Assembly (NCBI GenBank): GCA_012523075.1
Contig: JAAYJF010000112.1
Location: forward strand, 1 to 62,406
Source: Clostridiales bacterium
GTDB lineage: Bacteria; Bacillota; Clostridia; Ch29
Length of the DNA: 62,406 bases
Reading direction: 5' to 3'
The translations under genes were made by a program, and so were the position numbers. Below are positions 162 through 51,069 of this stretch, piece by piece. Numbering within the stretch: position 1 is the stretch's first letter; each line of letters begins with the position of its first letter. Under the pieces are notes generated by a model that saw only the letters and a program-made list of their open reading frames with translations, was not told where the DNA came from and searched no databases.

Positions 162-365
162 ATAGAAGTTGCAGTAAGGATGCGATGAACTGGAAGGTTG
201 CTGGAGATTTCCGGGAAATTTCCGGGGAGTATGTCCACATCTCGAATGGGGCGACTTTGGTTTTGTATGCACGCATTTAAAAAAAATTCAAAACGCCTGG
301 ATGAGTGTATATGAGACTGGGTTGCGCGTAAACAAAAACGTGCGATTTATAAGGAGGGAAATTTA

Positions 366-22239: not shown

Positions 22240-22478
22240 GTATGTTATGTATATACAACGTACTAATAGTATTACATTCCATTATCTGTTATTCCGAATA
22301 AGCGGAGTCCGAAGGGCCCGATTCTGACGCTTTAAAGGGCGAAGCCCGAAGAACCTTTCGGAGGCAGGCATAAGGTCCTTCGCTTCGCTCAGGATGACAG
22401 CTACTACGCAAGGTCCTTCGCTTTGCTCAGGATGACACACTAGGAAATGTAGAATTAAATGTGTTTTATGTAACTATG
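22240..22478 (+). repeat. composite palindromic MITE-like repeat, copy A (most diverged)
   Basis: Shares ...acaacgtactaatagtattacattcc...ccttcgcttcgctcaggatgaca... with copies at 28641 and 51075. Confidence 0.8.
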
Positions 22479-22511
22479 GGTAAATGGATGAAAAATGGAG
22501 GGAAAGAAATC

Positions 22512-23915
22512 ATGGGGAAAATAGGTACAAGCTATCTGGTGCCACATCCTCCTATAATAGTTGCGGAGGTGGGGCAGGGGGAGGAAAGAAAGGCCCAAAA
22601 AACAATTGATGCGATGAAGGAAGTATCGCTGGACATCGCTGCTAAGAAACCGGAGATTTTAGTTGTCATTACGCCCCACGGTCCATTGTTTAGGGACGCC
22701 ATGGCGGTGGGAGTCCAGCGGGAGTTTAGCGGAGACTTCGGCGGCTTCGGCCAGCCCGGTGTGTCTCTATCCTTTACAGGGCACACCCAAATGGCCTTCG
22801 ATATAATGGAAGAAGCTGCCCGGGACGGTATATCCGTTATGGCCGTTGACGAAGAAACCCGCAAGAGGTACGGCATATCCTCCGGTCTTGACCATGGGGC
22901 CCTAGTACCCCTGTACTTTATCAGCAAAAAACACCAGGGTTTTGGCCTGGTGCACATAACCTACGGGTTGCTTCCGCCAGAAAGGCTTTACCGGTTCGGT
23001 AAGTGCATCCAAAGGGCGGCGGAGAAGCAAAACGGTCAAACCGCCGTTTTATGTAGCGGAGACCTGTCCCACAGGCTCAAAAGGGGAGCCCCCGCAGGTT
23101 ACAGCAAAAAGGGCATCGAATACGACCGAAAACTTGTGGCCCTCCTTAAGGACATGAGGGTGGAGGGTATAATGAAAATGGATCCTGGCCTGATAGAACA
23201 AGCCGGCGAGTGCGCTTACCGGTCTGTGGTGACTACCCTGGGAGTTCTGGACGGCTACAGCGTGGATGCTCGGGTACTGTCCTACGAGGGTCCCTACGGC
23301 GTAGGATATTGCGTCGCCGCCTTTACCCCCTCGGGGAGGGAGCATAAAGGGGAAGGTGAAAAACCGCAAGATTCAGCTAATAAAAGTCCTGCCGAAGGCC
23401 AAAGGGGAGATCCCTTCGTCGGACTGGCCCGCCTGGCGCTGGAAAGCTATATAAAGAAGGGTGAGGTAATAACCCCCGACGAGGGGCTTCCAGAGGAGAT
23501 GCTGTTCCAAAGGGCCGGGACCTTCGTGTCCCTCAAGATGGACGGGCAGCTTAGGGGCTGCATAGGTACAATTGCGTCCACCACTGAAAACATTGCCCGG
23601 GAAATAATAAGCAACGCAATAAGCGCCGGGGTGAGGGACCCCCGGTTCTATCCGGTAACGCCGGAGGAACTGGAACACCTTGAATATTCGGTGGATGTAC
23701 TGGGGCAGCCGGAGGTCATTCAGTCCATGGACGAGTTGGACGTCAAAAGATACGGCGTAATAGTCCGCTCGGGGGGAAGGTCTGGTCTTTTGCTGCCCGA
23801 TATAGAGGGGATTGATACACCGCAGCAGCAGGTGACCGTCGCTCTAAGGAAGGCGGGTATCAGTCCAGGGGAGCCCTATGTTATGGAGCGGTTTGAAGTA
23901 ATAAGGCACAAGTGA
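22512..23915 (+). CDS. fusion protein: Memo/LigB-superfamily domain plus AMMECR1 domain (AmmeMemoRadiSam components B and A)
   Basis: N-terminal half has PHPP...ITPHGP...LDHGALVPL...SGDLSHRL. C-terminal half has GTFVSLKMDGQLRGCIGTI...RDPRF (AMMECR1). ATG 22512 follows a GGAGGG RBS; the track start at 22461 lies inside the repeat. Confidence 0.8.
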   Translation: MGKIGTSYLVPHPPIIVAEVGQGEERKAQKTIDAMKEVSLDIAAKKPEILVVITPHGPLFRDAMAVGVQREFSGDFGGFGQPGVSLSFTGHTQMAFDIMEEAARDGISVMAVDEETRKRYGISSGLDHGALVPLYFISKKHQGFGLVHITYGLLPPERLYRFGKCIQRAAEKQNGQTAVLCSGDLSHRLKRGAPAGYSKKGIEYDRKLVALLKDMRVEGIMKMDPGLIEQAGECAYRSVVTTLGVLDGYSVDARVLSYEGPYGVGYCVAAFTPSGREHKGEGEKPQDSANKSPAEGQRGDPFVGLARLALESYIKKGEVITPDEGLPEEMLFQRAGTFVSLKMDGQLRGCIGTIASTTENIAREIISNAISAGVRDPRFYPVTPEELEHLEYSVDVLGQPEVIQSMDELDVKRYGVIVRSGGRSGLLLPDIEGIDTPQQQVTVALRKAGISPGEPYVMERFEVIRHK

Positions 23916-23927
23916 GGATGTGAGAGC

Positions 23928-24911
23928 ATGGGAATCAAAGAAGCTATGTACTACACAAGGGATGGAGATACTGTCCGGTGTTTTCTGTGTCCCCACGCAT
24001 GCGTACTTAAACCGGAACAAACAGGCAGATGCAGCGTCAGAAGAAATAAAGGCGGTGTTTTGTATTCGCTAAACTACGGAGAGATAACCGCCTGTAACGT
24101 CGACCCGATAGAAAAAAAGCCCCTATATCATTTCTATCCCGGAAGGCCGATACTGTCGGTGGGTAGTTTCGGGTGCAATCTAAAATGTGGTTTCTGTCAG
24201 AACCATGCTATTGCCCACGGCACTCCCGGGACGGTTTTTGTGTCTCCCGGGGACCTTGTGAGCCGGGCGATGTCGGTGAGGGACAATATTGGAATAGCCT
24301 ATACCTATAACGAGCCTTCAATATGGTATGAATACGTGCTGGACACCGCGCGCCTTGCAAGGGAAAGGGTTCTTAAAAACGTGCTGGTGACAAACGGTTA
24401 TATTGGAATAAAAGCTTTGGAACAGCTGCTGCCCTTTATAGACGCCCTCAATATTGATATAAAGGCCTTCAGCGATGATTACTACGGCAGCATATGTTCG
24501 GGCAGGCTGTCCCCTGTTCTTGATACGGTGAAAGCGGCGGCGGGATGCTGTCATGTGGAGGTTACAACCCTTGTGGTGGACGAACTTAACAGCGACACCG
24601 GGCAGTTGGAAAGCCTGGCTGAATGGATAGCCGGCGTTGACAAACATATTCCCATTCACCTTTCCAGGTACTATCCGGCGTATCAAATGGACAGGCCACC
24701 AACCCGGCTGGATACCATGGCTGCCGCCAAAGAGGCTGTTAAAAAGCATTTGGAATACGTCTATATAGGCAATGTAGCCGGTGTAGACAACAATACCTAC
24801 TGCCCCGCCTGTGATGCAAAACTGGTGGAAAGGAGGGGGCATGCCGCCAGGCTTTTATTTGACGGCAAAAAGTGCGGCGACTGCGGAAAACCTATTAGTA
24901 TGGTCGTTTAA
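23928..24911 (+). CDS. amrS: AmmeMemoRadiSam system radical SAM enzyme
   Basis: CNLKCGFCQN radical-SAM cluster motif plus Cys-rich N- and C-termini; adjacent to the AMMECR1 gene. Confidence 0.8.
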   Translation: MGIKEAMYYTRDGDTVRCFLCPHACVLKPEQTGRCSVRRNKGGVLYSLNYGEITACNVDPIEKKPLYHFYPGRPILSVGSFGCNLKCGFCQNHAIAHGTPGTVFVSPGDLVSRAMSVRDNIGIAYTYNEPSIWYEYVLDTARLARERVLKNVLVTNGYIGIKALEQLLPFIDALNIDIKAFSDDYYGSICSGRLSPVLDTVKAAAGCCHVEVTTLVVDELNSDTGQLESLAEWIAGVDKHIPIHLSRYYPAYQMDRPPTRLDTMAAAKEAVKKHLEYVYIGNVAGVDNNTYCPACDAKLVERRGHAARLLFDGKKCGDCGKPISMVV

Positions 24912-39694: not shown

Positions 39695-39737
39695 CAAAAA
39701 AAGGAGTAGCCCCAAATTGGTGGGCTACTCTTTTTTT
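39695..39737. terminator. bidirectional terminator
   Basis: A8 run - GAGTAGCCC...GGGCTACTC - T7 run, between convergent genes. Confidence 0.85.
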
Positions 39738-41163
39738 AACTCAGCTTGAAAGCCTTGGCTGGATCTACTTTGACGTCCCTCGGGTAATAGGATCCCGTCT
39801 GCTGCGAAAAAGCATATCTCTTGGCCAGCTCCCCCGACCGGGCCATATTTTTTATCTGCCCGAGGCATTCTATAAACCGGTCTATATCTTTCCGATTGTT
39901 GTAAGCCGCAAGGCTTATCCTTACCATGCCCGGGATACCGCTTAAGTCGCCGGTTCTTTTCTTATGTATAAGCCGGGAAAGCTGGTGCTGGTCAAGGCCT
40001 AAGAGACGCAGCATATAGGGCTGGGCGCAAAAACAACCGTTTCTCACCGCGATACCGCCCTCCCAAGCAAGGGCCGCTGCTACCAGGCTGTGGGGTACTC
40101 CGTCCAGGTTAAAAGCAATAACCCCCACCCTGTTCTCGGTCCGATTTGGATCGGTTTCGCCGTAAATTTTAAGCCCTTTAATCTCACCCAGCCTTTTTAG
40201 TGTATAGGAAGTAAGGCCCTTTTCATATTTCTCGATATTGTCCATACAGCACCTTTCCAGGTACTCTATAGCCGCCGCCAGGGCTACCGCCCCCACCACG
40301 TTGGGCGAACCCGCCTCTTCCCTGTCCGGGATTCCGGCCCATTCCACCAATTGGTGGGTTACTATGTTTACCGTTCCGCCACCGGTGTATTCGGGGGCAC
40401 CCCTTAAGAAAGCCTTTTTTGGCCCTATAAGCACCCCCGTCCCGAAGGGAGCGTACATTTTATGGGCCGAAAACACCAGGTAATCTATATGCTCCGGGTG
40501 GCCATCGGGTTTTATGTCCAGCGGCGAATGGGGAATAAGCTGGGCCCCGTCTACCAGTATTGGGACCCCCGCCCGGTGCGCCATGGTGGCAATCCTTGCC
40601 ACATCGCATTTATAGCCGGTTACGTTGGAGGCACCGGATACGCTGATAAGCTTAAGCCGGCTGCCGTGTAAAGCTATCTTGGCCTCCAGGTCTTTATAAT
40701 CAAGGGCACCCTTTTCATCGACAGCGGCGTATACCGTGCCCGCCTTCAAGCGCCATGGCAGGTCATTGGAATGGTGCTCCATCATTGTTGTTATTACAAC
40801 ATCCCCCCGAGTAAAACCCAGCCGGTAGGACAGTTTGTTGATCGCTTCGGTGGCATTTTTCACAAATACTATTCCGTTGGTTTTGAGGTCGGCGTTGACT
40901 AAACCGCCGACAATTTCATGGGCCCTGTCGTATACATGGGTGGAAACTAACGACTTGAAACCGGCGCCCCTATGCACGCTAGAATACCAGTCCATGAATT
41001 CGTTTACCTTGTGCAATACTGGCCTCAGCACCGGTGTACTGGCGGCATTATCGAGGTTCACATAGGTTTTATATCCTCCTCCGGCGAGGGGTACCCTTTT
41101 GTTTATGCCCACTATATCCCTGCGGAATCTTGCCTGGTTAAACCCATTTTTCGAATAAAGCAT
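39736..41163 (-). CDS. class V aminotransferase-fold PLP enzyme (cysteine desulfurase / SufS-CsdA-like)
   Basis: SAHKMYAPFGTG PLP-lysine region. ATG 41163 follows AGGGGGAG. Confidence 0.8.
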   Translation of the reverse strand: MLYSKNGFNQARFRRDIVGINKRVPLAGGGYKTYVNLDNAASTPVLRPVLHKVNEFMDWYSSVHRGAGFKSLVSTHVYDRAHEIVGGLVNADLKTNGIVFVKNATEAINKLSYRLGFTRGDVVITTMMEHHSNDLPWRLKAGTVYAAVDEKGALDYKDLEAKIALHGSRLKLISVSGASNVTGYKCDVARIATMAHRAGVPILVDGAQLIPHSPLDIKPDGHPEHIDYLVFSAHKMYAPFGTGVLIGPKKAFLRGAPEYTGGGTVNIVTHQLVEWAGIPDREEAGSPNVVGAVALAAAIEYLERCCMDNIEKYEKGLTSYTLKRLGEIKGLKIYGETDPNRTENRVGVIAFNLDGVPHSLVAAALAWEGGIAVRNGCFCAQPYMLRLLGLDQHQLSRLIHKKRTGDLSGIPGMVRISLAAYNNRKDIDRFIECLGQIKNMARSGELAKRYAFSQQTGSYYPRDVKVDPAKAFKLS

Positions 41164-41562
41164 AATTCTTCTCCCCCTGAAAATACGCACTTATACCATT
41201 ATATGAGACCTGATGGAATATTGTTTCAACAATCGGTGAACAAAAGGCGCGGGGCAAACTCTTTCCGGGAAGTTTCGTGGTCTTTGGGGGTACAAATCGG
41301 GCTTAAAACTCATAATATAATTAAATAAGAAATTTTATGCCAGTGTGATATCCGGCCAATTGAAATGCAATAGGCTGTATGATAAGATTTACCCGACAGT
41401 AAACAGTTGTAACCTCCCTTCTTTTTAAAGAGGCGGATAGGAAATGCAAAGGTTCTTAATGGTGGGTTTCTTTGCACCGTATGGGGTAAAAGACTTTGGC
41501 TGACGCAAAGAAACCTCTTAATAGGCATTAAGTCGGTATATTAGAGGAACAGGGGGAATTCT

Positions 41563-42952: not shown

Positions 42953-43029
42953 ATCCGTTATGTAAAGGAGGTGATGCATTAGAGAATGTTATTGGAAAAG
43001 AGGGAGATGATAACAAACATTGAGGGATA

Positions 43030-43275
43030 CTAAGCGCCAGGGCTCCTTTTTCAACGGGCAATTGTGCGAATTGTGTGCCAAAAACGCGGGCGCTAGAACG
43101 CCTACCAATCGCGCATTGTGTGCAACGTGCCGCGAGTATCTTATAAAAGGAGTTGACGAGGTCCGGGGCTTATCGAGGTTTTCGGCGGATGGTCCCGCGG
43201 TATACTGCTACCGTAAAGGCCCCACAAATCCACCGGGTGACCGATGGGACAAAGGGGGCCGGGCAGTCAACAATA
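43030..43275 (+). ncRNA. glmS ribozyme: glmS ribozyme
   Basis: A/GCGCCAG cleavage-site motif at 43033. Core GUUGACGAGG...UUAUCGAGGUUUUCGGCGGAUG...CCC...GGUGAC...GGGACAAAGG matches the remembered Thermoanaerobacter/Bacillus ribozyme core. Confidence 0.88.
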
Positions 43276-43300
43276 CTTTTTAAAAGGAGAAAATACCACC

Positions 43301-44410
43301 ATGTGTGAAATAGAAAAAAGCGGCTATCCCCATTATATGCTTAAGGAGATATACGAACAGCCGGAGGTAATAAAACGAACACTAAAAGAAAGACTGATAC
43401 CGGGAAGTGAGGGAATAGTTCTTGATGGTATAGGGCTGACCCAAAGAGAGCTGGACGGCGTGCACAGGATGGTAATAGTCGCCTGCGGCACATCCTATCA
43501 TGCGGGGCTTGCTGGCAAATACCTTATTGAAAGTTTAGCCGGGATACCGGTAGAAGTGGAGATAGCATCCGAGTTCCGGTACAGGAGCCCGGCGGTGGAC
43601 AAAAACAGCCTTGTTATAGTAATCAGCCAGTCGGGGGAAACCGCCGACACTCTTGATGCATTGAGGACGGCAAAGGGAAAAGGCGCCCGTGTTCTTGCCA
43701 TAACAAATGTGGTGGGCAGCACAATACCCAGGGAAGCGGACTATTCCATTTATACCTGCGCAGGCCCCGAAGTTTCGGTGGCTTCCACAAAGGCCTACAC
43801 GTCGCAGCTAATAGTCATCTACTTAATAGCGTTGCAACTGGCTTATATAAAGGGAGGTATCGGCCGGGAAGTATACCGGCAAATGTTGGAGGCGGTAAAC
43901 AGGCTTCCGGAGCAGGCGCAAAAGATGCTGGACTGTTCACAGTCAATGAAGGAACTGGCCGGGAAACATAAGGATATAGAAAAGATTGTATACCTGGGTA
44001 GGGGCCTTGACTATGCACTGGCCCTTGAGGGGTCGCTTAAGTTCAAGGAGACATGCTATATTCATTCGGCTGCTTATCCGGGGGGCGAGTTCAGGCATGG
44101 ACCTATTGCCCTGGTGGAGGAAGGACTTTTGGTAGTTTTGCTTGCAACCCAGGACGCTCTTATTGACAAAACCCTTGCCAATTTAAAAGAGGTAAAGGAC
44201 AGGGGAGCCTACGTGGTGGCCCTGGCCAAGGAGGGCGACGGGGAAGTAGGTAAATTGGCAGACAGGGTAGTATATATACCCGATATTTTCGATGAGTTCA
44301 CATCGGCGCTGGCGGTAATACCGCTCCAGCTTTTTGCCTATTACTCAGCGGTAGCCCGGGGTCGTAACGTTGACAGGCCTCGGAGCCTTGTAAAAAGCGT
44401 TACCGACTAA
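43301..44410 (+). CDS. glmS: GlmS-like protein consisting only of the two SIS (isomerase) domains; glutaminase domain absent
   Basis: MCEIEKSGYPHYMLKEIYEQPEV... aligns with the start of the GlmS isomerase domain (E. coli ...DKGIYRHYMQKEIYEQP), and the protein ends ...RPRSLVKSVTD like GlmS. 369 aa against about 600 expected. Confidence 0.85.
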   Translation: MCEIEKSGYPHYMLKEIYEQPEVIKRTLKERLIPGSEGIVLDGIGLTQRELDGVHRMVIVACGTSYHAGLAGKYLIESLAGIPVEVEIASEFRYRSPAVDKNSLVIVISQSGETADTLDALRTAKGKGARVLAITNVVGSTIPREADYSIYTCAGPEVSVASTKAYTSQLIVIYLIALQLAYIKGGIGREVYRQMLEAVNRLPEQAQKMLDCSQSMKELAGKHKDIEKIVYLGRGLDYALALEGSLKFKETCYIHSAAYPGGEFRHGPIALVEEGLLVVLLATQDALIDKTLANLKEVKDRGAYVVALAKEGDGEVGKLADRVVYIPDIFDEFTSALAVIPLQLFAYYSAVARGRNVDRPRSLVKSVTD

Positions 44411-44484
44411 TCACAGGTAATTACAGAGACGGTTGTGTTGTAGGAAAATGCGAAACAAAGATTATTTATAACGGGAGGTATTTT

Positions 44485-44760
44485 GTGGATAGAAAACTAA
44501 AATGTCTACGTTGTGGTAATCCGATGGAATTCGTAGAAAGCGAAAAAATACAATTGGGAGAAAGAGGAATACCTTTTTCTCACGTTATAGCAGGGGCATT
44601 AGAGGTTGATATCTATTATTGCAAAGAATGCGGGAAATTGGAATTTTATCATACAAAGGATGCGCTTCTTACAAAGATTCAATGCCCCAGTTGTGGGAAA
44701 ACCCATGACAAAGACTACCGAAAATGTCCATTCTGTAAATATGATTACAGGGCTAAATAG
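44485..44760 (+). CDS. small double zinc-ribbon protein
   Basis: Four CxxC pairs (CLRC, CKEC, CPSC, CPFC); GTG start after GGGAGG. Confidence 0.6.
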   Translation: MDRKLKCLRCGNPMEFVESEKIQLGERGIPFSHVIAGALEVDIYYCKECGKLEFYHTKDALLTKIQCPSCGKTHDKDYRKCPFCKYDYRAK

Positions 44761-44837
44761 CATAGGAAGTTATTTTGGGCTGACACCAATCACCCTTGGC
44801 ATAACAAATCCTTATTACGCAGCTGCAGGAAAATGCG

Positions 44838-44885
44838 TAATAAGCACTTTTGTCATCCTGAGCGAAGCGAAGGATCTCATGATAC
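44838..44885 (-). repeat. solo unit of the GTCATCCTGAGCGAAGCGAAGGATC repeat
   Basis: ttttgtcatcctgagcgaagcgaaggatctcatg is the reverse complement of the right-arm unit of copies A-C. Confidence 0.8.
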
Positions 44886-44949
44886 ACATTATTCTTAAAT
44901 TGTGAAGGATCCGGGAGAAAATGCTCCAAAAAACGAAACCATTATAGGC

Positions 44950-44982
44950 TTGACTAACGAAGACATTTTATGGTAATATAAT
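44950..44982 (+). promoter_or_regulatory. candidate sigma-A promoter of the gcv operon
   Basis: TTGACT-N18-TAATAT (overlapping TATAAT). Confidence 0.45.
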
Positions 44983-45025
44983 GCAAACCCTATTATGGGA
45001 ATGATAATAAAAAAGGAGAAACGAG

Positions 45026-46132
45026 ATGGATAATTTAAAAAAGACTTCTTTGTTTCCCAGTTACAAAAAGCATGGAGCTAAGCTGGTGGATTACGCCGGC
45101 TGGTCCATGCCGGTGGAGTTTTCCGGTCTGACTCGTGAGCATGAGGCCGTGCGCACCGCTGCCGGTCTATTTGATGTCTCTCATATGGGAGAGATCGAAG
45201 TGAAGGGAAAAGAGGCCACAGAGTACCTTCAGTATCTGCTCACCAACAACATCGGGATAATGCATGACAATCAAATAATTTACGCCTTCATGTGCTATGA
45301 AAATGGCGGTGTAGTAGACGACCTGCTGGTTTATAAGTATTCCGCAGGTCATTATCTCCTTGTTGTGAATGCGGCGAACATGGAAAAAGATTATCAGTGG
45401 ATGCTGGATCAAAAGGGAGACTATCAAGTAGAAATTGACAACCTTTCAGATCAGTTTTCCGAGGTGGCCTTGCAGGGACCAAAGGCCGAAGCCATACTTC
45501 AGAGGCTCACAGACACCGATCTTTCTAAGGTTCCCTCTTTCTATCTGAAACGGGACGTGAAGATTGCCGGAGCGAATTGCCTGTTGTCGAGGACCGGCTA
45601 TACCGGGGAGGACGGGTTTGAAATCTATCTCGGTCACGAGGACGCTCCTTTGGTGTGGGAAAAAATCTTGGAAGTAGGCAAGGCGGACGGAGTGGTTCCT
45701 GTAGGTTTAGGTGCCAGGGATACCTTGCGCTTTGAAGCTGCTCTCCCGCTATATGGTAACGAAATCTCCCAGGATATATCGCCTCTGGAGGCGGGGCTGG
45801 GGTACTTTGTTAAGTTCGACAAAGGGGATTTCATTGGAAGGGAAGCACTTTTTGCGCAAAAGCAGGAGGGTCCCGCAAGAAAGCTGATAGGCTTCGAAAT
45901 GACCGAAAGAGGGATACCGAGGCATGGCTACCCTGTCCTTTCAGAAGGAAAGGAAATAGGTTTTGTAACTACCGGTTATTATTCCCCCACGCTGGGCAAA
46001 AGCATCGGTTTCGCACTGGTACAAAAAGAGTATGCAAATTTGGGAGACACCGTTGAAATTCAGATTCGGAAAAAAACTGCGAAAGCCAAAATTGTTGACA
46101 AGAGATTCTATGCGAAAAACTATAAAAAATAA
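45026..46132 (+). CDS. gcvT: glycine cleavage system T protein (aminomethyltransferase)
   Basis: Translation. Confidence 0.95.
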   Translation: MDNLKKTSLFPSYKKHGAKLVDYAGWSMPVEFSGLTREHEAVRTAAGLFDVSHMGEIEVKGKEATEYLQYLLTNNIGIMHDNQIIYAFMCYENGGVVDDLLVYKYSAGHYLLVVNAANMEKDYQWMLDQKGDYQVEIDNLSDQFSEVALQGPKAEAILQRLTDTDLSKVPSFYLKRDVKIAGANCLLSRTGYTGEDGFEIYLGHEDAPLVWEKILEVGKADGVVPVGLGARDTLRFEAALPLYGNEISQDISPLEAGLGYFVKFDKGDFIGREALFAQKQEGPARKLIGFEMTERGIPRHGYPVLSEGKEIGFVTTGYYSPTLGKSIGFALVQKEYANLGDTVEIQIRKKTAKAKIVDKRFYAKNYKK

Positions 46133-46148
46133 ATGGAGGTAAAAAATA

Positions 46149-46532
46149 ATGGTAACGGTAGGAGGCTTGTATTATTCGAAAGACCATGAGTGGGTAAAGG
46201 TTGACGGGAAAAAAGCTCTTATAGGAATCACCGACTATGCTCAGAACGCGCTTGGTGAAATCGTTTACGTGGAACTCCCGGATATGGGTACAGAGTACAA
46301 GGCCGGGGACGTATTCTGCGTAATTGAATCCGTAAAGGCCGCTGCGGATTCTTTCACTCCGGTTTCTGGAAAGGTCGTGGAAGTCAATGAAGAGTTGGAG
46401 GATTCTCCCCAGCTTTTGAACGAAGGTCCTTATGATAACTGGATTGTGGCCATTGAAATGGACGACTCTTCCGAACTGGAAAACCTGATGGACGAGCAAG
46501 CTTACAAAATGTTTTGTGAAAAGGAGGAATGA
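46149..46532 (+). CDS. gcvH: glycine cleavage system H protein
   Basis: Lipoyl-lysine motif VIESVKAA. Confidence 0.95.
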
Positions 46533-46533
46533 C

Positions 46534-47871
46534 ATGCATAGATATATTCCCAACACAGATGCCGACGCCAAGGCCATGCTGGACGTAATTGGGATAAAAT
46601 CCATGGACCAATTGTTCCAAGGTATTCCCGACGACCTGATTCTAAAGAGGGCCCTTAAGTTAGATTCTGGCATATCTGAGCTGGAAATCGAGCGAAAGAT
46701 GAAAGAGTTGGGTAAAAAGAACCGGTCTACCGATGACCTGGTTTGTTTCCTTGGAGCCGGTGCCTATGACCATTACATACCCTCCATAATCAAACATCTG
46801 GCGAAAAGGTCTGAATTTTACACGGCATACACGCCTTACCAGCCGGAAATAAGCCAGGGCACCCTTCAGGCAATCTTCGAATACCAGACTATGATCTGCA
46901 ACCTTACAGGGATGGATGTGAGCAATGCCTCTTTATACGACGGAGCTACCGCCTGTGCAGAAGCGGCCATCATGGCGGTGGACAGCACCCGGCGGAATAC
47001 CGTCTTAGTGTCGGAGACAATGCATCCGGAAACCCGGCAGGTACTAAAAAGCTATATGCATTCCAGGGAAATAAACATCGCGGAGATTCCAATGGCAGAC
47101 GGGGTCACCGACCCGGAGATGCTGAAGAAACTCATTGATGCAGACAGCGCGGCTGTCATCGTCCAGAGCCCCAACTTCTTCGGCATCGTTGAAGACTTGA
47201 CAGAGATTGAGAAAATCACCCATGGCAATAGGTCGCTTTTGGTCAGCTCGGTGGATCCTATTTCCCTGGCCATCTTAAAAAAACCGGCCGAATATGGAGT
47301 GGATATCGCCGTGGGGGATGCCCAGGTCCTGGGCAACAACCTGAACTACGGAGGACCATACATTGGATTTATGGCTGCCACTTCAAAGCTCATGAGAAAG
47401 ATGCCTGGCAGGATGGTGGGGCAGTCGCTGGACGTAGACGGCAGGCGAGCCTTTGTACTGACCCTGCAGGCCAGGGAACAGCATATCCGGCGCTACAAGG
47501 CTACCTCGAATATCTGTTCCAACCAGAGCTTGAACGCTCTGATTGCCTCCATTTATATGGTTACCATGGGAAAGAAAGGCCTACGGGAAGTGGCACTTCA
47601 GATTACGGAAAAAGCTTATTATGCTGCGGGCAGGCTCACAGCAGGAGGCAAATACAAGTTAGCTTTCGACCAGCCGTTCTTCAGGGAATTTGCCCTAATT
47701 GGACCGAAGGATGCGGACCTTATAAACAGAGAACTGCTTGCTAATAACATCCTAGGAGGCTACAACCTCAACAAGGAATACGGGATTGAAAACGGTGTTT
47801 TGCTGTGCGTCACAGAAAAAAGGACAAAGCAGGAAATTGATCAGCTGACAGATCTAATGGAGGTGATCTGA
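46534..47871 (+). CDS. gcvPA: glycine dehydrogenase (decarboxylating) subunit 1
   Basis: MHRYIPNTD...; ATG 46534 follows AAGGAGG. Confidence 0.95.
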
Positions 47872-49329
47872 TTGAGAGGCTATAACAAGTTGATCTTTGA
47901 ACTTTCAAAAGAAGGCAGAAACGCTTTTTCGCTCCCGGAAAACGATGTGGGAAGGACACCTCTTGAGGACATGCTTCCTGCCCATCTCCTTACAAAAGAG
48001 GAAGTAGAACTGCCGGAAGTCAGCGAAGTGGATGTGGTTAGGCATTATACTCTGCTGTCCAAAAAAAATTACGGATTGGACACGGGGTTCTATCCTTTGG
48101 GGTCCTGCACTATGAAATACAACCCGAAAATCAACGAGGATATGTCCTCTTTAGACTGTTTCGCTAATCTCCATCCCTATCAGCCTGAGGATACCGTGCA
48201 GGGGGCCCTGGCCCTCATGTACGACCTGGACTACATGCTTTCAGAGATAAGCGGCATGAGCAGAGTATCTCTGCAGCCGGCTGCGGGGGCCCACGGGGAA
48301 ATGGTTGGGCTGATGATAATCAAGGCGTACCACAAAAAAAGAGGGGACAACAAGAGGACGAAGATTATAGTGCCCGATTCCGCCCATGGGACCAACCCGG
48401 CCAGCGCTGCGATGGTGGGTTTCGACATTATTGAGATCAAATCCACCAAGGACGGCGCCGTTGATATGGAAGACCTCAAGGCAGCATTAAGCGATGAGGT
48501 GGCGGGGCTGATGCTCACTAACCCCAGTACGCTGGGGCTCTTTGAAAAGAACATAAAGGAGATCGCCGATCTGGTCCACGAGGCAGGAGGCCTGCTGTAT
48601 TACGACGGGGCCAATATGAATGCCATTATGGGTATCTCCAGGCCCGGTGATATGGGCTTCGATGTGATTCATTACAATCTTCATAAGACCTTTTCTACTC
48701 CTCACGGGGGTGGCGGCCCCGGGGCCGGCCCGGTGGGTGTAAAGGAACATCTGGTGGAGTTCCTGCCCGTTCCCATGATTGAGAAATCAGGCGATAGATA
48801 CTTCCTTGATTATGACAAACCCTATTCTATAGGCAAGATTAAAAGCTTCTACGGCCATTTCGGCGTAATGGTACGGGCGTATACCTATATACTGGCCATG
48901 GGTGCAGAGGGGTTGAAAGATGCGAGCCGCAAGGCGGTTTTAAATGCCAACTATATGATGGCCCGGTTGAAGGAGTATTACAAGCTGCCCATCGATGAGA
49001 TTTGCCAGCATGAGTTCGTGCTTGGAGGTTTGAAAGACGGAACTGATGAAGTAACTACGCTGGATATTGCTAAGAGGCTAATAGATTATGGATACCATCC
49101 GCCTACCATCTATTTCCCGCTCATCGTCCATGAAGCCATAATGGTGGAGCCCACCGAAACTGAAAGCCGTGAAACTTTGGATGAATTCATCGATGCCATG
49201 ATTCGTATTGCTGAGGAAGCCAAGGAGAATCCACAGGTTCTAAAAGAGGCACCTCACAATACCCCGGTGCGCAGGATCGATGAAGTGCTGGCAGCCAGAA
49301 AACCCGTTCTGAAATGGCAGAATGATTAG
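47872..49329 (+). CDS. gcvPB: glycine dehydrogenase (decarboxylating) subunit 2
   Basis: TTG start; [21 protein letters not shown] region. Confidence 0.95.
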
Positions 49330-49359
49330 CATTGCATTGTAAAAATGACGAGAGGTGAC

Positions 49360-49662
49360 ATGATGTTTGCAGTGGACGGTAACTACCAAAAAGCTTTTAA
49401 GGATGCAATTACTGCTTCGCTGAAGGAAAGGACTGAAAAGGCCTGTGCCACGTGAGACCTCGCAAGCGTGCTTGCAGGCGCATGGGGCGTCATGAAAGAA
49501 GTGGGCCCGGAACAAGTGGAAGGGCTAAAGGAGTATATTGAGGCATTAGAGGGTACCCAGGTCATGCTGGACGATGGGAAGGTAGCGGAAATATTGAAGG
49601 CCGATATTAAGGAGAGGAAAGGAAAAGCTACGCTGATCTTCCGATATCAGCTGCAGTCCTGA
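49360..49662 (+). CDS. candidate small selenoprotein (CxxU) read through an in-frame TGA at 49453-49455
   Basis: Both halves are in the same frame (hand-checked codon by codon). The context is C-A-T-TGA. A hairpin at 49458-49478 lies immediately downstream. AGAGGTG RBS before ATG 49360/49363. Confidence 0.45.
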
Positions 49663-49682
49663 CTCTAATAAAGTCTCGGTTT

Positions 49683-49719
49683 AAAACAGCCTTTTGCCGT
49701 TGTGGCCAAAGGCTGTTTT
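49683..49719 (+). terminator. rho-independent terminator
   Basis: AAAACAGCCTTT...AAAGGCTGTTTT followed by ATAAA. Confidence 0.75.
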
Positions 49720-49884
49720 ATAAACCGCGCTATCCAGGGACGTAGCGCCGTTTATCCCGCCGCTTGCGCCAGCAGTTCCAGCATTGCGTTTTTTACAATA
49801 CGTGGAAATATAAGCAGCGGGCCGGAAAGGTGGTATTAGCGGCGGTAGTCATCGGAAAAGTATTAACATAGGAGCGGGGATGCT

Positions 49885-50874
49885 ATGAGATACATCATCA
49901 ATAACAGTACCAATCCCTTTTTCAATATTGCCTTGGAGGAATACTGCCTTATGCATGTTGACCCGGGGGAAGATTATTTCCTGCTTTGGCAGAACGAGCC
50001 TTCCATTATCATAGGGAGAAATCAGAATACGCTGGAGGAAATCAACCAGCGATTTGTAAGGGAACGGGGAATAAAGGTGGTAAGAAGGATTTCCGGGGGA
50101 GGAGCAGTCTATCACGACCTGGGCAACCTGAATTTTACCTTCATATCCAGCGTAGACCCAGGTAGGGCTATAAACTTTTCGGTTTTTGCGAACCCGGTTA
50201 TCAAGGTACTTAAAGAGCTCGGTGTGGATGCCATTCTGGTGGGCAGAAACGATATCACCGCTTATGGCAAGAAAATATCCGGCAATGCTCAGCGGCTGTA
50301 TCGGAGGAAATTTCTGCAGCATGGCACCCTGCTCTTTGATGTGAACATCGATGACCTGGCAGAAGCCTTGAATGTATCCGCTGACAAGATAGAGTCCAAA
50401 GGCATAAAGTCCATCCGAAGCCGGGTGGGCAACATCCGGGAGTTTCTGAAGGAGGATATGACCATCGATGAGTTTCGAGAACGACTTCAAAGAAGGTTGT
50501 CCGACGATTACCGCTCCAAGGAGATCAAGCTCTCAGAAGAAATGATTCTCCGGGTATCAGAGACTGCCCGGGATAAATTTGCATCCTGGGCCTGGACCTA
50601 TGGCGAATCCCCTCCGTTTAATTACCGCTTCGAGAAGCGTTTCGCCGGCGGAAAGGTGGGAGTATTCATTCATATCAAAGAAGGCCTTATCAGGGAGTGC
50701 AAATTCTACGGAGACTATCTGGGCATACTGGAGACCGAAGGTTTTGGGGCAAGGCTTACGGGGTTGAAATACGACCGGGAAACGGTGGAAGGGGCCATGG
50801 AAGGGGTGGACCTCGTTTCCTATTTCGGATCCATAACCCGGGATGAACTGTTGGAAATTATGTTTTCGGGTTAA
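49885..50874 (+). CDS. lplA: lipoate-protein ligase A
   Basis: MRYIINNSTNPFFNIALEEY...RRISGGGAVYHDLGN. Confidence 0.92.
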   Translation: MRYIINNSTNPFFNIALEEYCLMHVDPGEDYFLLWQNEPSIIIGRNQNTLEEINQRFVRERGIKVVRRISGGGAVYHDLGNLNFTFISSVDPGRAINFSVFANPVIKVLKELGVDAILVGRNDITAYGKKISGNAQRLYRRKFLQHGTLLFDVNIDDLAEALNVSADKIESKGIKSIRSRVGNIREFLKEDMTIDEFRERLQRRLSDDYRSKEIKLSEEMILRVSETARDKFASWAWTYGESPPFNYRFEKRFAGGKVGVFIHIKEGLIRECKFYGDYLGILETEGFGARLTGLKYDRETVEGAMEGVDLVSYFGSITRDELLEIMFSG

Positions 50875-50937
50875 ACTGTTCATTAAATACTCTATTGATT
50901 AATTGTACCACTATGATATAATCCAATTGAACCGAAT

Positions 50938-51069
50938 AATTACAGGGGAGCTGGGCTTTAACCGGCTGAGAGGGAAATATTCCGACCCTTATACCTGATC
51001 TGGGTAATGCCAGCGTAGGAAGTAGACTTTGCTGCCCGTTACCCGTTTGAGGTACGGGCAGTTTTGGTT
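50938..51069 (+). promoter_or_regulatory. TPP (THI-box) riboswitch with terminator expression platform
   Basis: GGGGAGC...CTGAGAG...ACCCTT.TACCTGATCTGGGTAATGCCAGCGTAGGAA, then CTGCCCGT...ACGGGCAG plus TTTT. Confidence 0.9.

What the first reader, a model, noticed from the sequence alone, without database searches (positions are those of the whole stretch)
49360..49662. In-frame TGA in a 100-codon ORF between gcvPB and lplA: candidate CxxU selenoprotein with a SECIS-like hairpin
From ATG 49360 the frame reads MMFAVDGNYQKAFKDAITASLKERTEKACAT and meets TGA at 49453-49455. It then continues in the same frame (DLASVLAGAWGVMKEVGPEQVEGLKEYIEALEGTQVMLDDGKVAEILKADIKERKGKATLIFRYQLQS) to the stop at 49660-49662. 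The ORF track shows only the downstream half. The TGA sits at the last position of a C-A-T-TGA motif, the CxxU/CxxC redox pattern in which selenocysteine usually occurs. A hairpin begins 2 nt after the TGA, at 49458-49478: CCU(C)GCAAG-CGUG-CUUGCAGG. It has 8 bp, one bulged C and a 4-nt loop containing GU, which is roughly the geometry of bacterial SECIS elements. The gene lies inside the gcvT-H-PA-PB ... lplA cluster, which contains no dihydrolipoamide dehydrogenase (L protein). A small selenol/thiol redox protein could therefore be the partner that re-oxidises dihydrolipoyl-GcvH in this anaerobe; this functional idea is pure inference. I cannot assign the sequence to any named selenoprotein family.
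Basis: partly seen in the sequence, partly recalled or inferred. Interest (0 to 1): 0.8.

Follow-up and report, generated by a model that had tools for sequence, protein, structure and literature searches.

The report
New selenoprotein in glycine-cleavage operon
A small gene at the end of the glycine-cleavage operon is read through a conserved UGA as selenocysteine, defining an uncatalogued selenoprotein family that may supply the missing redox partner of this enzyme system in anaerobic Clostridia.

Summary
The ORF most likely starts at ATG 49363, ends at 49662 and encodes 99 residues. It carries TGA at 49453-55 inside an invariant C-x-x-U motif.

All 30 loci checked at DNA level (20 distinct lineages, down to about 32% amino-acid identity) have TGA at exactly this codon. 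None has TGG, TGY or another stop. All 35 "full-length" database homologues show W there; the five I checked at DNA level are TGA translated under code 4.

Both sides of the TGA evolve as one reading frame. Seven lineages have no start codon within 20 codons after it. TGA is an ordinary stop elsewhere in the window.

Sixteen of 20 lineages place the gene after gcvPB, alongside lplA, lipA, glyA, fhs or folD. No L-protein gene was seen. A strong terminator follows the gene.

The family matches nothing in Pfam, NCBIfam or the PDB (sequence or fold). It is absent from the 2016 and 2022 selenoprotein catalogues. RefSeq annotates only a truncated "hypothetical protein".

The proposed role, a selenol/thiol shuttle for lipoyl-GcvH, remains inference (about 0.4). 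Sec machinery could not be checked.

The parts
45026..49329 (+). gcvT (45026-46132), gcvH (46149-46532), gcvPA (46516-47871) and gcvPB (47872-49329): the glycine-cleavage genes upstream in the same transcription unit
   Evidence: Pfam GCV_T, GCV_H, GDC-P and GcvP2_C. No terminator-like site on the + strand between gcvPB and the ORF.
49350..49357 (+). Ribosome-binding site GAGAGGTG for the selenoprotein gene
   Evidence: Read from the sequence. Equivalent GGAGGTG/AGAGGTGG motifs precede the start in L002 and L003.
49363..49662 (+). Selenoprotein coding sequence: 99 codons including Sec31, with TGA stop at 49660-62.
   Evidence: Same-frame coding signature on both sides of the TGA. AF2 model of homologue P0011 has pLDDT 88.8.
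49444..49446 (+). Cys28 codon (TGT), the invariant partner in the C-x-x-U motif
   Evidence: Invariant in alignments A2 and A5.
49453..49455 (+). In-frame TGA, the proposed selenocysteine codon (Sec31)
   Evidence: TGA at the identical site in 30 of 30 loci checked. The 'W' in database proteins is TGA in all five checked at DNA level.
49458..49478 (+).
   Evidence: In-register pairing in 66-71% of cells against 28-49% for slid controls. Six of 8 pairs show double-sided changes.
49477..49491 (+). Hairpin 2 (GGCGC-AUGGG-GCGUC) over the A-W-G-V codons. An alternative or additional SECIS stem that overlaps hairpin 1 by 2 nt.
   Evidence: 72-77% of cells paired against 22-63% for slid controls. A hairpin at about this position appears in most of the 17 per-lineage folds, in slightly different registers.
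49677..49727 (+). Strong intrinsic-terminator-like hairpin with a U tract. It ends the gcv-selenoprotein operon before lplA.
   Evidence: Fold energy -29.9 kcal/mol, z = -7.28, 0 of 200 shuffles fold as well.
49885..50874 (+). lplA (lipoate-protein ligase), the downstream neighbour, probably a separate transcription unit
   Evidence: Pfam LplA-B_cat and Lip_prot_lig_C. NCBIfam TIGR00545, 419 bits.

Best explanation
The ORF 49363-49662 is a genuine gene for a 99-residue selenoprotein. It is the last gene of the gcvT-gcvH-gcvPA-gcvPB operon.

Shown here: the UGA at 49453-55 lies in an invariant Cys28-x-x-Sec31 motif. It is kept in every relative, with one continuous reading frame across it. Structured RNA (hairpin 1 and/or hairpin 2) follows it directly, where bacterial SelB-dependent SECIS elements lie.

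Inferred from established knowledge: SelB with Sec-tRNA(Sec) reads the UGA as selenocysteine.

The protein has an alpha+beta fold unlike known redox folds: a long helix, the CxxU loop at the N-cap of a short helix, then a beta-alpha-beta-beta-beta unit.

Inferred mechanism, about 0.4: Cys28 and Sec31 cycle between a selenenylsulfide and a selenol/thiol. They exchange reducing equivalents with the (dihydro)lipoyl arm of GcvH. The protein would take the place of the missing flavoprotein L component at the lipoyl arm, and would pass electrons to or from a thioredoxin-type system, in either the glycine-cleavage or the glycine-synthase direction.

The confidence value given refers to the core claim (a real, read-through selenoprotein gene of the gcv operon), not to the redox-partner step.
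For: TGA conservation:
- TGA sits at the same C-x-x-TGA site in all 30 loci checked (20 distinct lineages, down to about 32% identity). None has TGG, TGY, TAA or TAG.
- All 35 full-length database homologues print W there. All five checked at DNA level are TGA and fail to translate under code 11.

One gene, not two:
- Variability by codon position is 0.41/0.32/0.62 upstream and 0.43/0.36/0.61 downstream. The upstream part has no stops in frame but several in the other frames.
- Seven lineages have no ATG, GTG or TTG within 20 codons after the TGA.
- Invariant residues R23, C28, U31, R94 and Y95 lie on both sides of the TGA.

Standard genetic code: TGA ends 5 of 30 window genes, including gcvH and gcvPA, and Pfam coverage reaches the gcvH C-terminus.

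RNA structure:
- The 42 nt from the UGA have a median rank of 2.4% among local coding stretches (range 0.3-17%) across 17 lineages, mean z -2.3.
- Hairpin 1 pairs in 66-71% of cells against 28-49% for slid controls, with 6 of 8 pairs changed on both sides.
- Hairpin 2 pairs in 72-77% of cells against 22-63%.

Sec decoding in a host: an IscA/HesB-type gene with TGA at its conserved Cys lies next to the family member in L002.

Operon membership and function:
- A 33-nt gap with an RBS follows gcvPB, and a strong terminator follows the gene.
- Sixteen of 20 lineages lie downstream of gcvPB. Neighbours are lplA, lipA, glyA, fhs or folD.
- No Pyr_redox-type L-protein gene appears in any gcv cluster inspected.
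- Precedents: PrdC is a CxxU electron-transfer partner encoded inside the proline reductase operon. [quoted passage not shown]
Against: - No selA, selB, selC or selD gene and no tRNA-Sec was found in the window or in any held locus, so Sec decoding by this organism is not shown directly.
- No Cys homologue exists, which is atypical, since almost all selenoproteins have one (PMC9312934).
- The SECIS architecture is unresolved. RNAalifold finds no single consensus over all lineages. The window hairpin alone is not exceptional. The loop of hairpin 1 starts only 11 nt after the UGA, closer than I recall for the bSECISearch consensus. Part of hairpin 2 may simply follow from the P/A-W-G-V codons.
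- For the function: four lineages (L002, L015, L026, L027) are not next to gcv. Adjacency to lplA and lipA equally fits a lipoylation role. No thioredoxin or thioredoxin reductase gene was seen nearby. There is no structural or biochemical evidence for contact with GcvH.
Confidence: 0.85

Rival explanations
1. It is a real selenoprotein, but its job is not electron exchange with GcvH. It could serve lipoyl-cofactor assembly or repair (with LplA or LipA), for example reducing or protecting the dithiolane, or acting as a sulfur/selenium relay. It could also be a general thiol-disulfide protein that merely travels with one-carbon genes.
For: Immediate neighbours are often lipoylation genes: lplA in the window clade and in L007-L010, L013, L023 and L033; lipA in L024 and L030; an LplA/B-type gene in L025. 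Four lineages lie outside gcv clusters. One of these sits next to a HesB-like Fe-S assembly selenoprotein gene.
Against: In the window a strong terminator separates the gene from lplA and ties it to gcvTHP. The constant neighbour across lineages is gcvPB, while lplA, lipA, glyA, fhs and folD vary. CxxU motifs are typical of redox carriers such as GrdA and PrdC.
Confidence: 0.4
2. The UGA is recoded, but not as selenocysteine. It might be read through by tRNA-Trp or another near-cognate tRNA, or the hosts might use a variant genetic code.
For: The Sec machinery was not observed. Public gene callers produce full-length proteins with W under code 4.
Against: TGA is a normal stop in the window. 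If Trp were the product, TGG (one transition away) should appear in some of 20 lineages, and it never does. An invariant Cys three residues upstream and structured RNA right after the UGA are hallmarks of Sec. The code-4 calls are mostly on short contigs and look like artefacts of automatic code choice by the gene callers.
Confidence: 0.05
3. There are two separate products: a 30-residue peptide that ends at the UGA, and an independently initiated protein of about 64 residues, as current annotations show.
For: Gene callers and RefSeq annotate a 53-74-aa downstream ORF, and sometimes a 30-36-aa upstream one. The window has an in-frame GTG five codons after the TGA.
Against: Seven lineages have no ATG, GTG or TTG within 20 codons of the TGA, and the positions of candidate starts are not conserved. 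Residues between the TGA and those starts are conserved (D/N32, L37). I saw no RBS before the internal starts on reading the sequence. The stop is always TGA, never TAA or TAG. AF2 folds the two parts into one compact domain with pTM 0.79.
Confidence: 0.03
4. It is a pseudogene (nonsense mutation) or a sequencing error in this window.
For: None beyond the presence of a stop codon.
Against: The same TGA occurs in 30 independent assemblies and 20 lineages, with purifying selection on both sides.
Confidence: 0.01

Closest known systems
GrdA, selenoprotein A of glycine reductase (Pfam PF04723)
   Same: It is a small clostridial protein with Cys and Sec in the same C-x-x-U order. It is encoded with the enzymes of an anaerobic glycine pathway and cycles through a selenenylsulfide that the thioredoxin system re-reduces.
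   Different: There is no sequence similarity: no GRDA hit for any of 35 members even at E <= 1. GrdA is 158 residues against 99 here. The gene sits in gcv operons, not grd operons. GrdA carries a carboxymethyl-selenoether intermediate, and nothing suggests that here.
PrdC, the proline-reductase-associated electron-transfer selenoprotein (TIGR04481)
   Same: It has a CxxU redox centre, is encoded inside the operon of the enzyme it is proposed to serve, and is proposed to act by selenide-sulfide exchange. It too was missed for years because of the in-frame TGA (PMC3091704).
   Different: PrdC is an RnfC-like protein of about 430 residues with NADH, FMN and Fe-S sites, and it has Cys-containing orthologues such as the one in C. 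difficile. The present protein is a 99-residue single domain with no cofactor motifs and no Cys forms.
L protein (dihydrolipoamide dehydrogenase) of the glycine cleavage system, and the thioredoxin reductase/thioredoxin system that replaces it in Eubacterium acidaminophilum
   Same: The proposed role is the same step of the cycle: re-oxidising (or, for synthesis, reducing) the lipoyl arm of GcvH. No L-protein gene appears in the clusters seen. The coupling of gcv electrons to the glycine reductase and thioredoxin route is cited in PMC3091704; the biochemical details are my own recollection of the Andreesen laboratory's work.
   Different: The protein has no FAD/NAD(P) domain, so it cannot by itself link to pyridine nucleotides. 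It could only be a shuttle that needs a further reductase. The function is untested.
SelW-like / Rdx family and other thioredoxin-fold CxxU selenoproteins (PF10262 and relatives)
   Same: They are small redox proteins with a CxxU motif placed at the start of a helix.
   Different: There is no Pfam hit. The predicted topology is not thioredoxin-like, and Foldseek finds no redox fold: the best match has TM 0.42 to the cereblon Lon-like domain at E 0.018.

Membership tests
Bacterial selenoprotein gene (SelB/SECIS-dependent UGA decoding) | In-frame UGA conserved among homologues, with coding conservation on both sides | tested here: met
   30 of 30 loci have TGA at the site. Codon-position pattern and frame openness agree. 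Invariant residues lie on both sides.
Bacterial selenoprotein gene (SelB/SECIS-dependent UGA decoding) | Stem-loop (SECIS) immediately 3' of the UGA | tested here: inconclusive
   The RNA after the UGA is unusually structured (median rank 2.4%, range 0.3-17%, 17 lineages), and two hairpins have partial covariation support. However, there is no single consensus, no Rfam model matches, and bSECISearch was not available.
Bacterial selenoprotein gene (SelB/SECIS-dependent UGA decoding) | selA, selB, selC (tRNA-Sec) and selD in the same genome | not testable with these tools
Indirect support: a HesB-like gene with TGA at its conserved Cys lies next to the family member in L002.
Bacterial selenoprotein gene (SelB/SECIS-dependent UGA decoding) | Cys-containing homologues aligned with Sec (usual, but not obligatory) | tested here: not met
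   No Cys forms among 32 hits of an exhaustive search of 1.84 billion representatives, or among 63 clusters from a profile search.
Bacterial selenoprotein gene (SelB/SECIS-dependent UGA decoding) | Selenium shown in the protein (75Se labelling or mass spectrometry) | not testable with these tools
   This requires an experiment.
GrdA (PF04723) | Match to the GRDA profile | tested here: not met
   No hit for the window protein at E <= 10, or for any of 35 members at E <= 1.
Thioredoxin-fold CxxU selenoproteins (Rdx/SelW-like, Trx-like, DsbA-like, AhpD-like) | Profile match or thioredoxin-like (or AhpD-like) fold | tested here: not met
   Pfam and NCBIfam give only noise. The AF2 topology is H-H-E-H-E-E-E. 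Foldseek against the PDB finds nothing at E < 0.001. The PDB profile search gives nothing below E 0.24.
DUF166 selenoprotein family (PF02593, listed in PMC9312934) | Match to the DUF166 profile | tested here: not met
   Only 1 of 35 members matches, at E 0.081 and 12.9 bits against a cut-off of 24.4.
Glycine cleavage L protein (dihydrolipoamide dehydrogenase) | FAD/NAD-binding Pyr_redox_2 and Pyr_redox_dim domains, about 450-470 residues | tested here: not met
   The protein has 99 residues and no such domain. Any resemblance is in the proposed role only.
Component of the glycine cleavage operon | Conserved co-location and co-orientation with gcvTHP across lineages, and co-transcription | tested here: met
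   Sixteen of 20 lineages lie downstream of gcvPB on the same strand. The window has a 33-nt gap with an RBS before the gene and a terminator after it. Transcription itself was not measured.

The most novel reading that the evidence does not exclude
This is an obligately selenocysteine-containing fifth component of the glycine cleavage/synthase system in anaerobic Clostridia, with a fold of its own. It would take over the lipoyl-GcvH redox step from the flavoprotein L protein and wire the system to a thioredoxin- or glycine-reductase-type electron route. That would make glycine cleavage, or reductive glycine synthesis, selenium-dependent in these organisms.
Probability: 0.35. Interest if true: 0.85.

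Novelty: new member of a known kind. Interest (0 to 1): 0.72.

Why it matters
How strict anaerobes that lack a dihydrolipoamide dehydrogenase recycle the lipoyl arm of GcvH has been open since the biochemical work on Eubacterium acidaminophilum. A dedicated CxxU selenoprotein encoded in the gcv operon gives a concrete candidate that can be tested.

It would add a selenium requirement to the glycine cleavage / reductive glycine pathway. That pathway is relevant to syntrophic acetate oxidation in digesters and to engineered C1 assimilation.

Methodologically, the family shows a blind spot. It has no Cys homologues, so Cys/Sec-pair searches miss it. Databases hold it either as truncated "hypothetical proteins" or as code-4 artefacts with a false Trp.

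An obligate-Sec family with a fold unlike any solved redox protein is also of interest for understanding why Sec is retained.

Tried and rejected
Database and structure searches that found nothing:
- Pfam and NCBIfam scans of the window protein (U replaced by C).
- The same scans of all 35 full-length members gave only scattered noise. The single weak DUF166 hit was rejected.
- A PDB profile search gave nothing below E 0.24; the best was a chance KOW-like stretch of ribosomal L26.
- Foldseek against the PDB gave no match at E < 0.001.
- Rfam found no SECIS or other match at the site and no glycine riboswitch upstream of gcvT.
- RNAalifold gave an empty consensus over 18 lineages.
- A shuffle test on the single window sequence was not significant.

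Searches for Sec decoding: no tRNA-Sec in the window or in 25 loci. No other Cys-adjacent TGA-interrupted candidate gene in the window.

- The paper search failed on all eight attempts (and the second search's turn), and DOI/PMID look-ups failed. Literature was therefore read only through PMC ids I could supply.
- As a result I could not check for any description after 2022.

Readings considered and rejected: Trp homologues (the W residues are TGA), two separate genes, a pseudogene, and a genome-wide TGA reassignment.

Full report
**1. The observation**

From ATG 49360 the frame reads 31 codons to TGA at 49453-55. It then continues for 68 codons to TGA at 49660-62. The mechanical ORF list shows only 49468-49662.

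Pfam confirms gcvT, gcvH, gcvPA and gcvPB upstream and lplA downstream. NCBIfam confirms lplA.

The start is most likely the second ATG, 49363. Homologues begin MF.... The closest relative has ATA ATG at this point. The RBS GAGAGGTG at 49350-57 is better spaced for 49363. That gives 99 codons, with Cys28 (TGT 49444-46) and the TGA as codon 31.

**2. The TGA is conserved, and the "Trp homologues" are artefacts**

- A word-indexed search found only two near-identical 64-aa fragments.
- An exhaustive phmmer search with the C-terminal 68 residues against 1.84 billion representatives gave 32 hits. Their lengths were bimodal: about 57-71 aa and about 97-105 aa.
- Every full-length hit showed W, not C, aligned to the TGA, in the pattern C-x-[TAS]-W-[DNG].
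- Reading the DNA showed that these W residues are TGA codons translated under genetic code 4. This was confirmed for L002 and L003 and for contigs of 26, 8.5 and 7.7 kb.
- A profile search raised the family to 63 clusters. There were 35 full-length sequences, all with "W" and none with Cys.
- Genome and metagenome scans plus contig look-ups gave 35 loci.
- In all 30 loci I checked, covering 20 distinct lineages at 32-48% identity to the window protein across the deeper branches, the codon is TGA.

**3. One gene, not two, and no code change**

- Pairwise variability by codon position is 0.41/0.32/0.62 for the 24 codons upstream and 0.43/0.36/0.61 for the 33 codons downstream. This is the same coding signature in the same frame.
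- The upstream part has no stops in frame, against 0-6 in the other frames.
- Seven lineages have no ATG, GTG or TTG within 20 codons after the TGA, and elsewhere the candidate starts are not conserved in position.
- The invariant residues are R23, C28, U31, R94 and Y95.
- AlphaFold2 folds the whole sequence of homologue P0011 (99 residues, 35-sequence alignment) into one compact domain, with pLDDT 88.8 and pTM 0.79.
- TGA is an ordinary stop in this organism. Five of 30 genes end with it, including gcvH and gcvPA, and Pfam coverage runs to the gcvH C-terminus.
- If the UGA were read as Trp, TGG should appear somewhere among the lineages. It never does.

**4. RNA structure after the UGA**

In the window alone the hairpin is unremarkable (z = -0.36). 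Comparison with relatives changes the picture.

- Across 17 lineages, the 42 nt starting at the UGA have a median rank of 2.4% among nearby coding stretches, with mean z -2.3. Individual ranks run from 0.3% to 17%; the window itself ranks at 6%. The lineages are related, so the nominal p-value overstates the evidence.
Six of 8 pairs change on both sides, and at most 1 of 500 shuffles reaches the observed covariation score. Examples are U-A to G-C and C-G to U-A in L010, and A-U to C-G in L011.
- Where the tetraloop is present, it reads N-G-U-N. From memory, a loop G-U is what SelB recognises.
- A second hairpin, 49477-49491 over the A/P-W-G-V codons, pairs in 72-77% of cells against 22-63%. 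A hairpin near this position appears in most lineages, in shifting registers. It may follow in part from the codons themselves.
- RNAalifold finds no family-wide consensus, and Rfam has no match.

I conclude that a SECIS-like structure is present but its exact architecture is unresolved.

**5. Sec machinery**

This could not be tested. There are no tRNA genes in the window or the loci. No sel genes appear among the window's annotated ORFs. No second TGA-interrupted candidate exists in the window.

There is one piece of indirect support. In L002 the family member lies next to, and divergent from, an IscA/HesB-family gene. That gene scores 59.8 bits on TIGR00049 (cut-off 58.8) and gives sub-threshold hits to the two HesB selenoprotein models. 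It carries TGA (2178-2180) at its conserved Cys. HesB-like proteins are a recognised selenoprotein family.

**6. Genomic context**

- In the window the gene follows gcvPB after 33 nt with an RBS. A very strong terminator hairpin follows it at 49677-49727 (z = -7.28). It is therefore the last gene of the gcv operon, and lplA looks like a separate unit.
- Sixteen of 20 lineages place the gene downstream of gcvPB on the same strand.
- The arrangements seen are gcvTHPAPB-ORF-lplA (most lineages), gcvPB-lipA-ORF-glyA (L024, L030-32), lipA-gcvTHPAPB-ORF-glyA-lplA/B-like (L025), gcvPB-fhs-ORF (L011) and gcvPB-folD-ORF-nrdR (L014).
- Four lineages lie elsewhere: L002, L015, L026 and L027-29.
- No Pyr_redox-type L-protein gene appears in any gcv cluster inspected.
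- All named hosts are Clostridia or Bacillota MAGs, including Oscillospiraceae and Senegalia sp.. The window carries a Clostridia-type S10 leader.

**7. Mechanism**

Shown: the CxxU motif, operon membership, and the absence of an L-protein gene nearby.

Inferred: Cys28 and Sec31 form a selenenylsulfide / selenol-thiol couple. In the model they sit in the loop between helix 8-26 and the short helix 33-38.

The best-supported role is dithiol-disulfide exchange with the lipoyl arm of GcvH, with electrons passed to or taken from a thioredoxin-type system. This fits two statements in PMC3091704. One is that gcv electrons can feed glycine reductase directly in Eubacterium acidaminophilum. The other is the precedent of PrdC, a CxxU partner encoded in its enzyme's operon.

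I put this step at about 0.4. A role in lipoylation or cofactor repair is the main rival.

**8. Comparison with what is known, and novelty**

- No Pfam or NCBIfam (June 2026) model matches the window protein or any of the 35 members.
- No PDB sequence or fold matches. The best fold match has TM 0.42.
- RefSeq and GenBank hold only truncated "hypothetical protein" entries, for example WP_442198486.1.
- The family is not in the 2006 survey, in Table S3 of the 2016 survey, or in the 87-family "complete list" of the 2022 review.
- That review notes that discovery relies on Cys/Sec pairs. This explains how a family without Cys forms escaped.

**9. Verdict**

This is a genuine and apparently uncatalogued selenoprotein family. 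It is obligately Sec-containing, has a fold unlike known redox proteins, and is tied to the glycine cleavage operon of anaerobic Clostridia. I file it as a new member of the known kind "bacterial CxxU selenoproteins". The more novel reading is a selenium-dependent replacement for the L protein.

Noticed in passing
window 43022-44410: A full-length glmS ribozyme (43022-43270, 91.8 bits) is followed by a 'glmS' ORF (43244-44410, 388 aa). The ORF aligns only to residues about 240-599 of GlmS, the SIS/isomerase half. No glutaminase domain is encoded between glmM and the ribozyme.
   Followed up: partly
L002 1992-2276 (- strand), TGA at 2178-2180: An IscA/HesB-family gene with an in-frame TGA at its conserved Cys. 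It is a known selenoprotein type and lies about 250 bp from, and divergent to, a member of the new family. Two selenoprotein genes sit side by side.
   Followed up: yes
Database proteins P0006-P0060 (35 clusters); loci L002, L003, L024-L026: Public gene callers translated these genes under genetic code 4, mostly on short contigs. The databases therefore hold 'full-length' proteins with a false Trp at the Sec position. The look-up flag 'translates_to_query: no' gives this away.
   Followed up: yes
window 44411-45025: The 615-nt gap upstream of gcvT has no glycine riboswitch or any other Rfam match, even at E <= 1. It holds only two short unsupported ORFs (44485-44760 and 44606-44905). How this gcv operon is regulated is unexplained.
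   Followed up: partly
window 50934-51038: A TPP riboswitch (72.4 bits) lies just after lplA. It heads a thiamine-related transporter operon (BPD_transp_1, NMT1/THI5-like, ABC ATPase). The same layout is present in relatives L001 and L004-L006.
   Followed up: partly
window 22461-24911: A LigB+AMMECR1 fusion protein (484 aa) is followed in the same frame, after a TGA stop, by a radical SAM protein (327 aa). This looks like an AmmeMemoRadiSam-type pair. The shared frame appears coincidental: there is no Cys next to the TGA.
   Followed up: no
window 39736-41190 (- strand): A 483-aa class-V aminotransferase of the SufS cysteine desulfurase type, below the family cut-offs. It gives a weak sub-threshold hit to selenocysteine lyase SclA. 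Any link to selenium metabolism is untested.
   Followed up: no
L027/L028 10205-10738; L015 5193-5990: In two of the non-gcv contexts the family member sits directly next to an uncharacterised co-directional gene. One is a 177-aa protein with a faint phosphohydrolase hit. The other is a 265-aa TIGR02569-like protein. They are not obviously related to each other.
   Followed up: partly
window 177-254: An S10-Clostridia ribosomal-protein leader heads the ribosomal protein cluster. This supports a Clostridia origin for the window.
   Followed up: no
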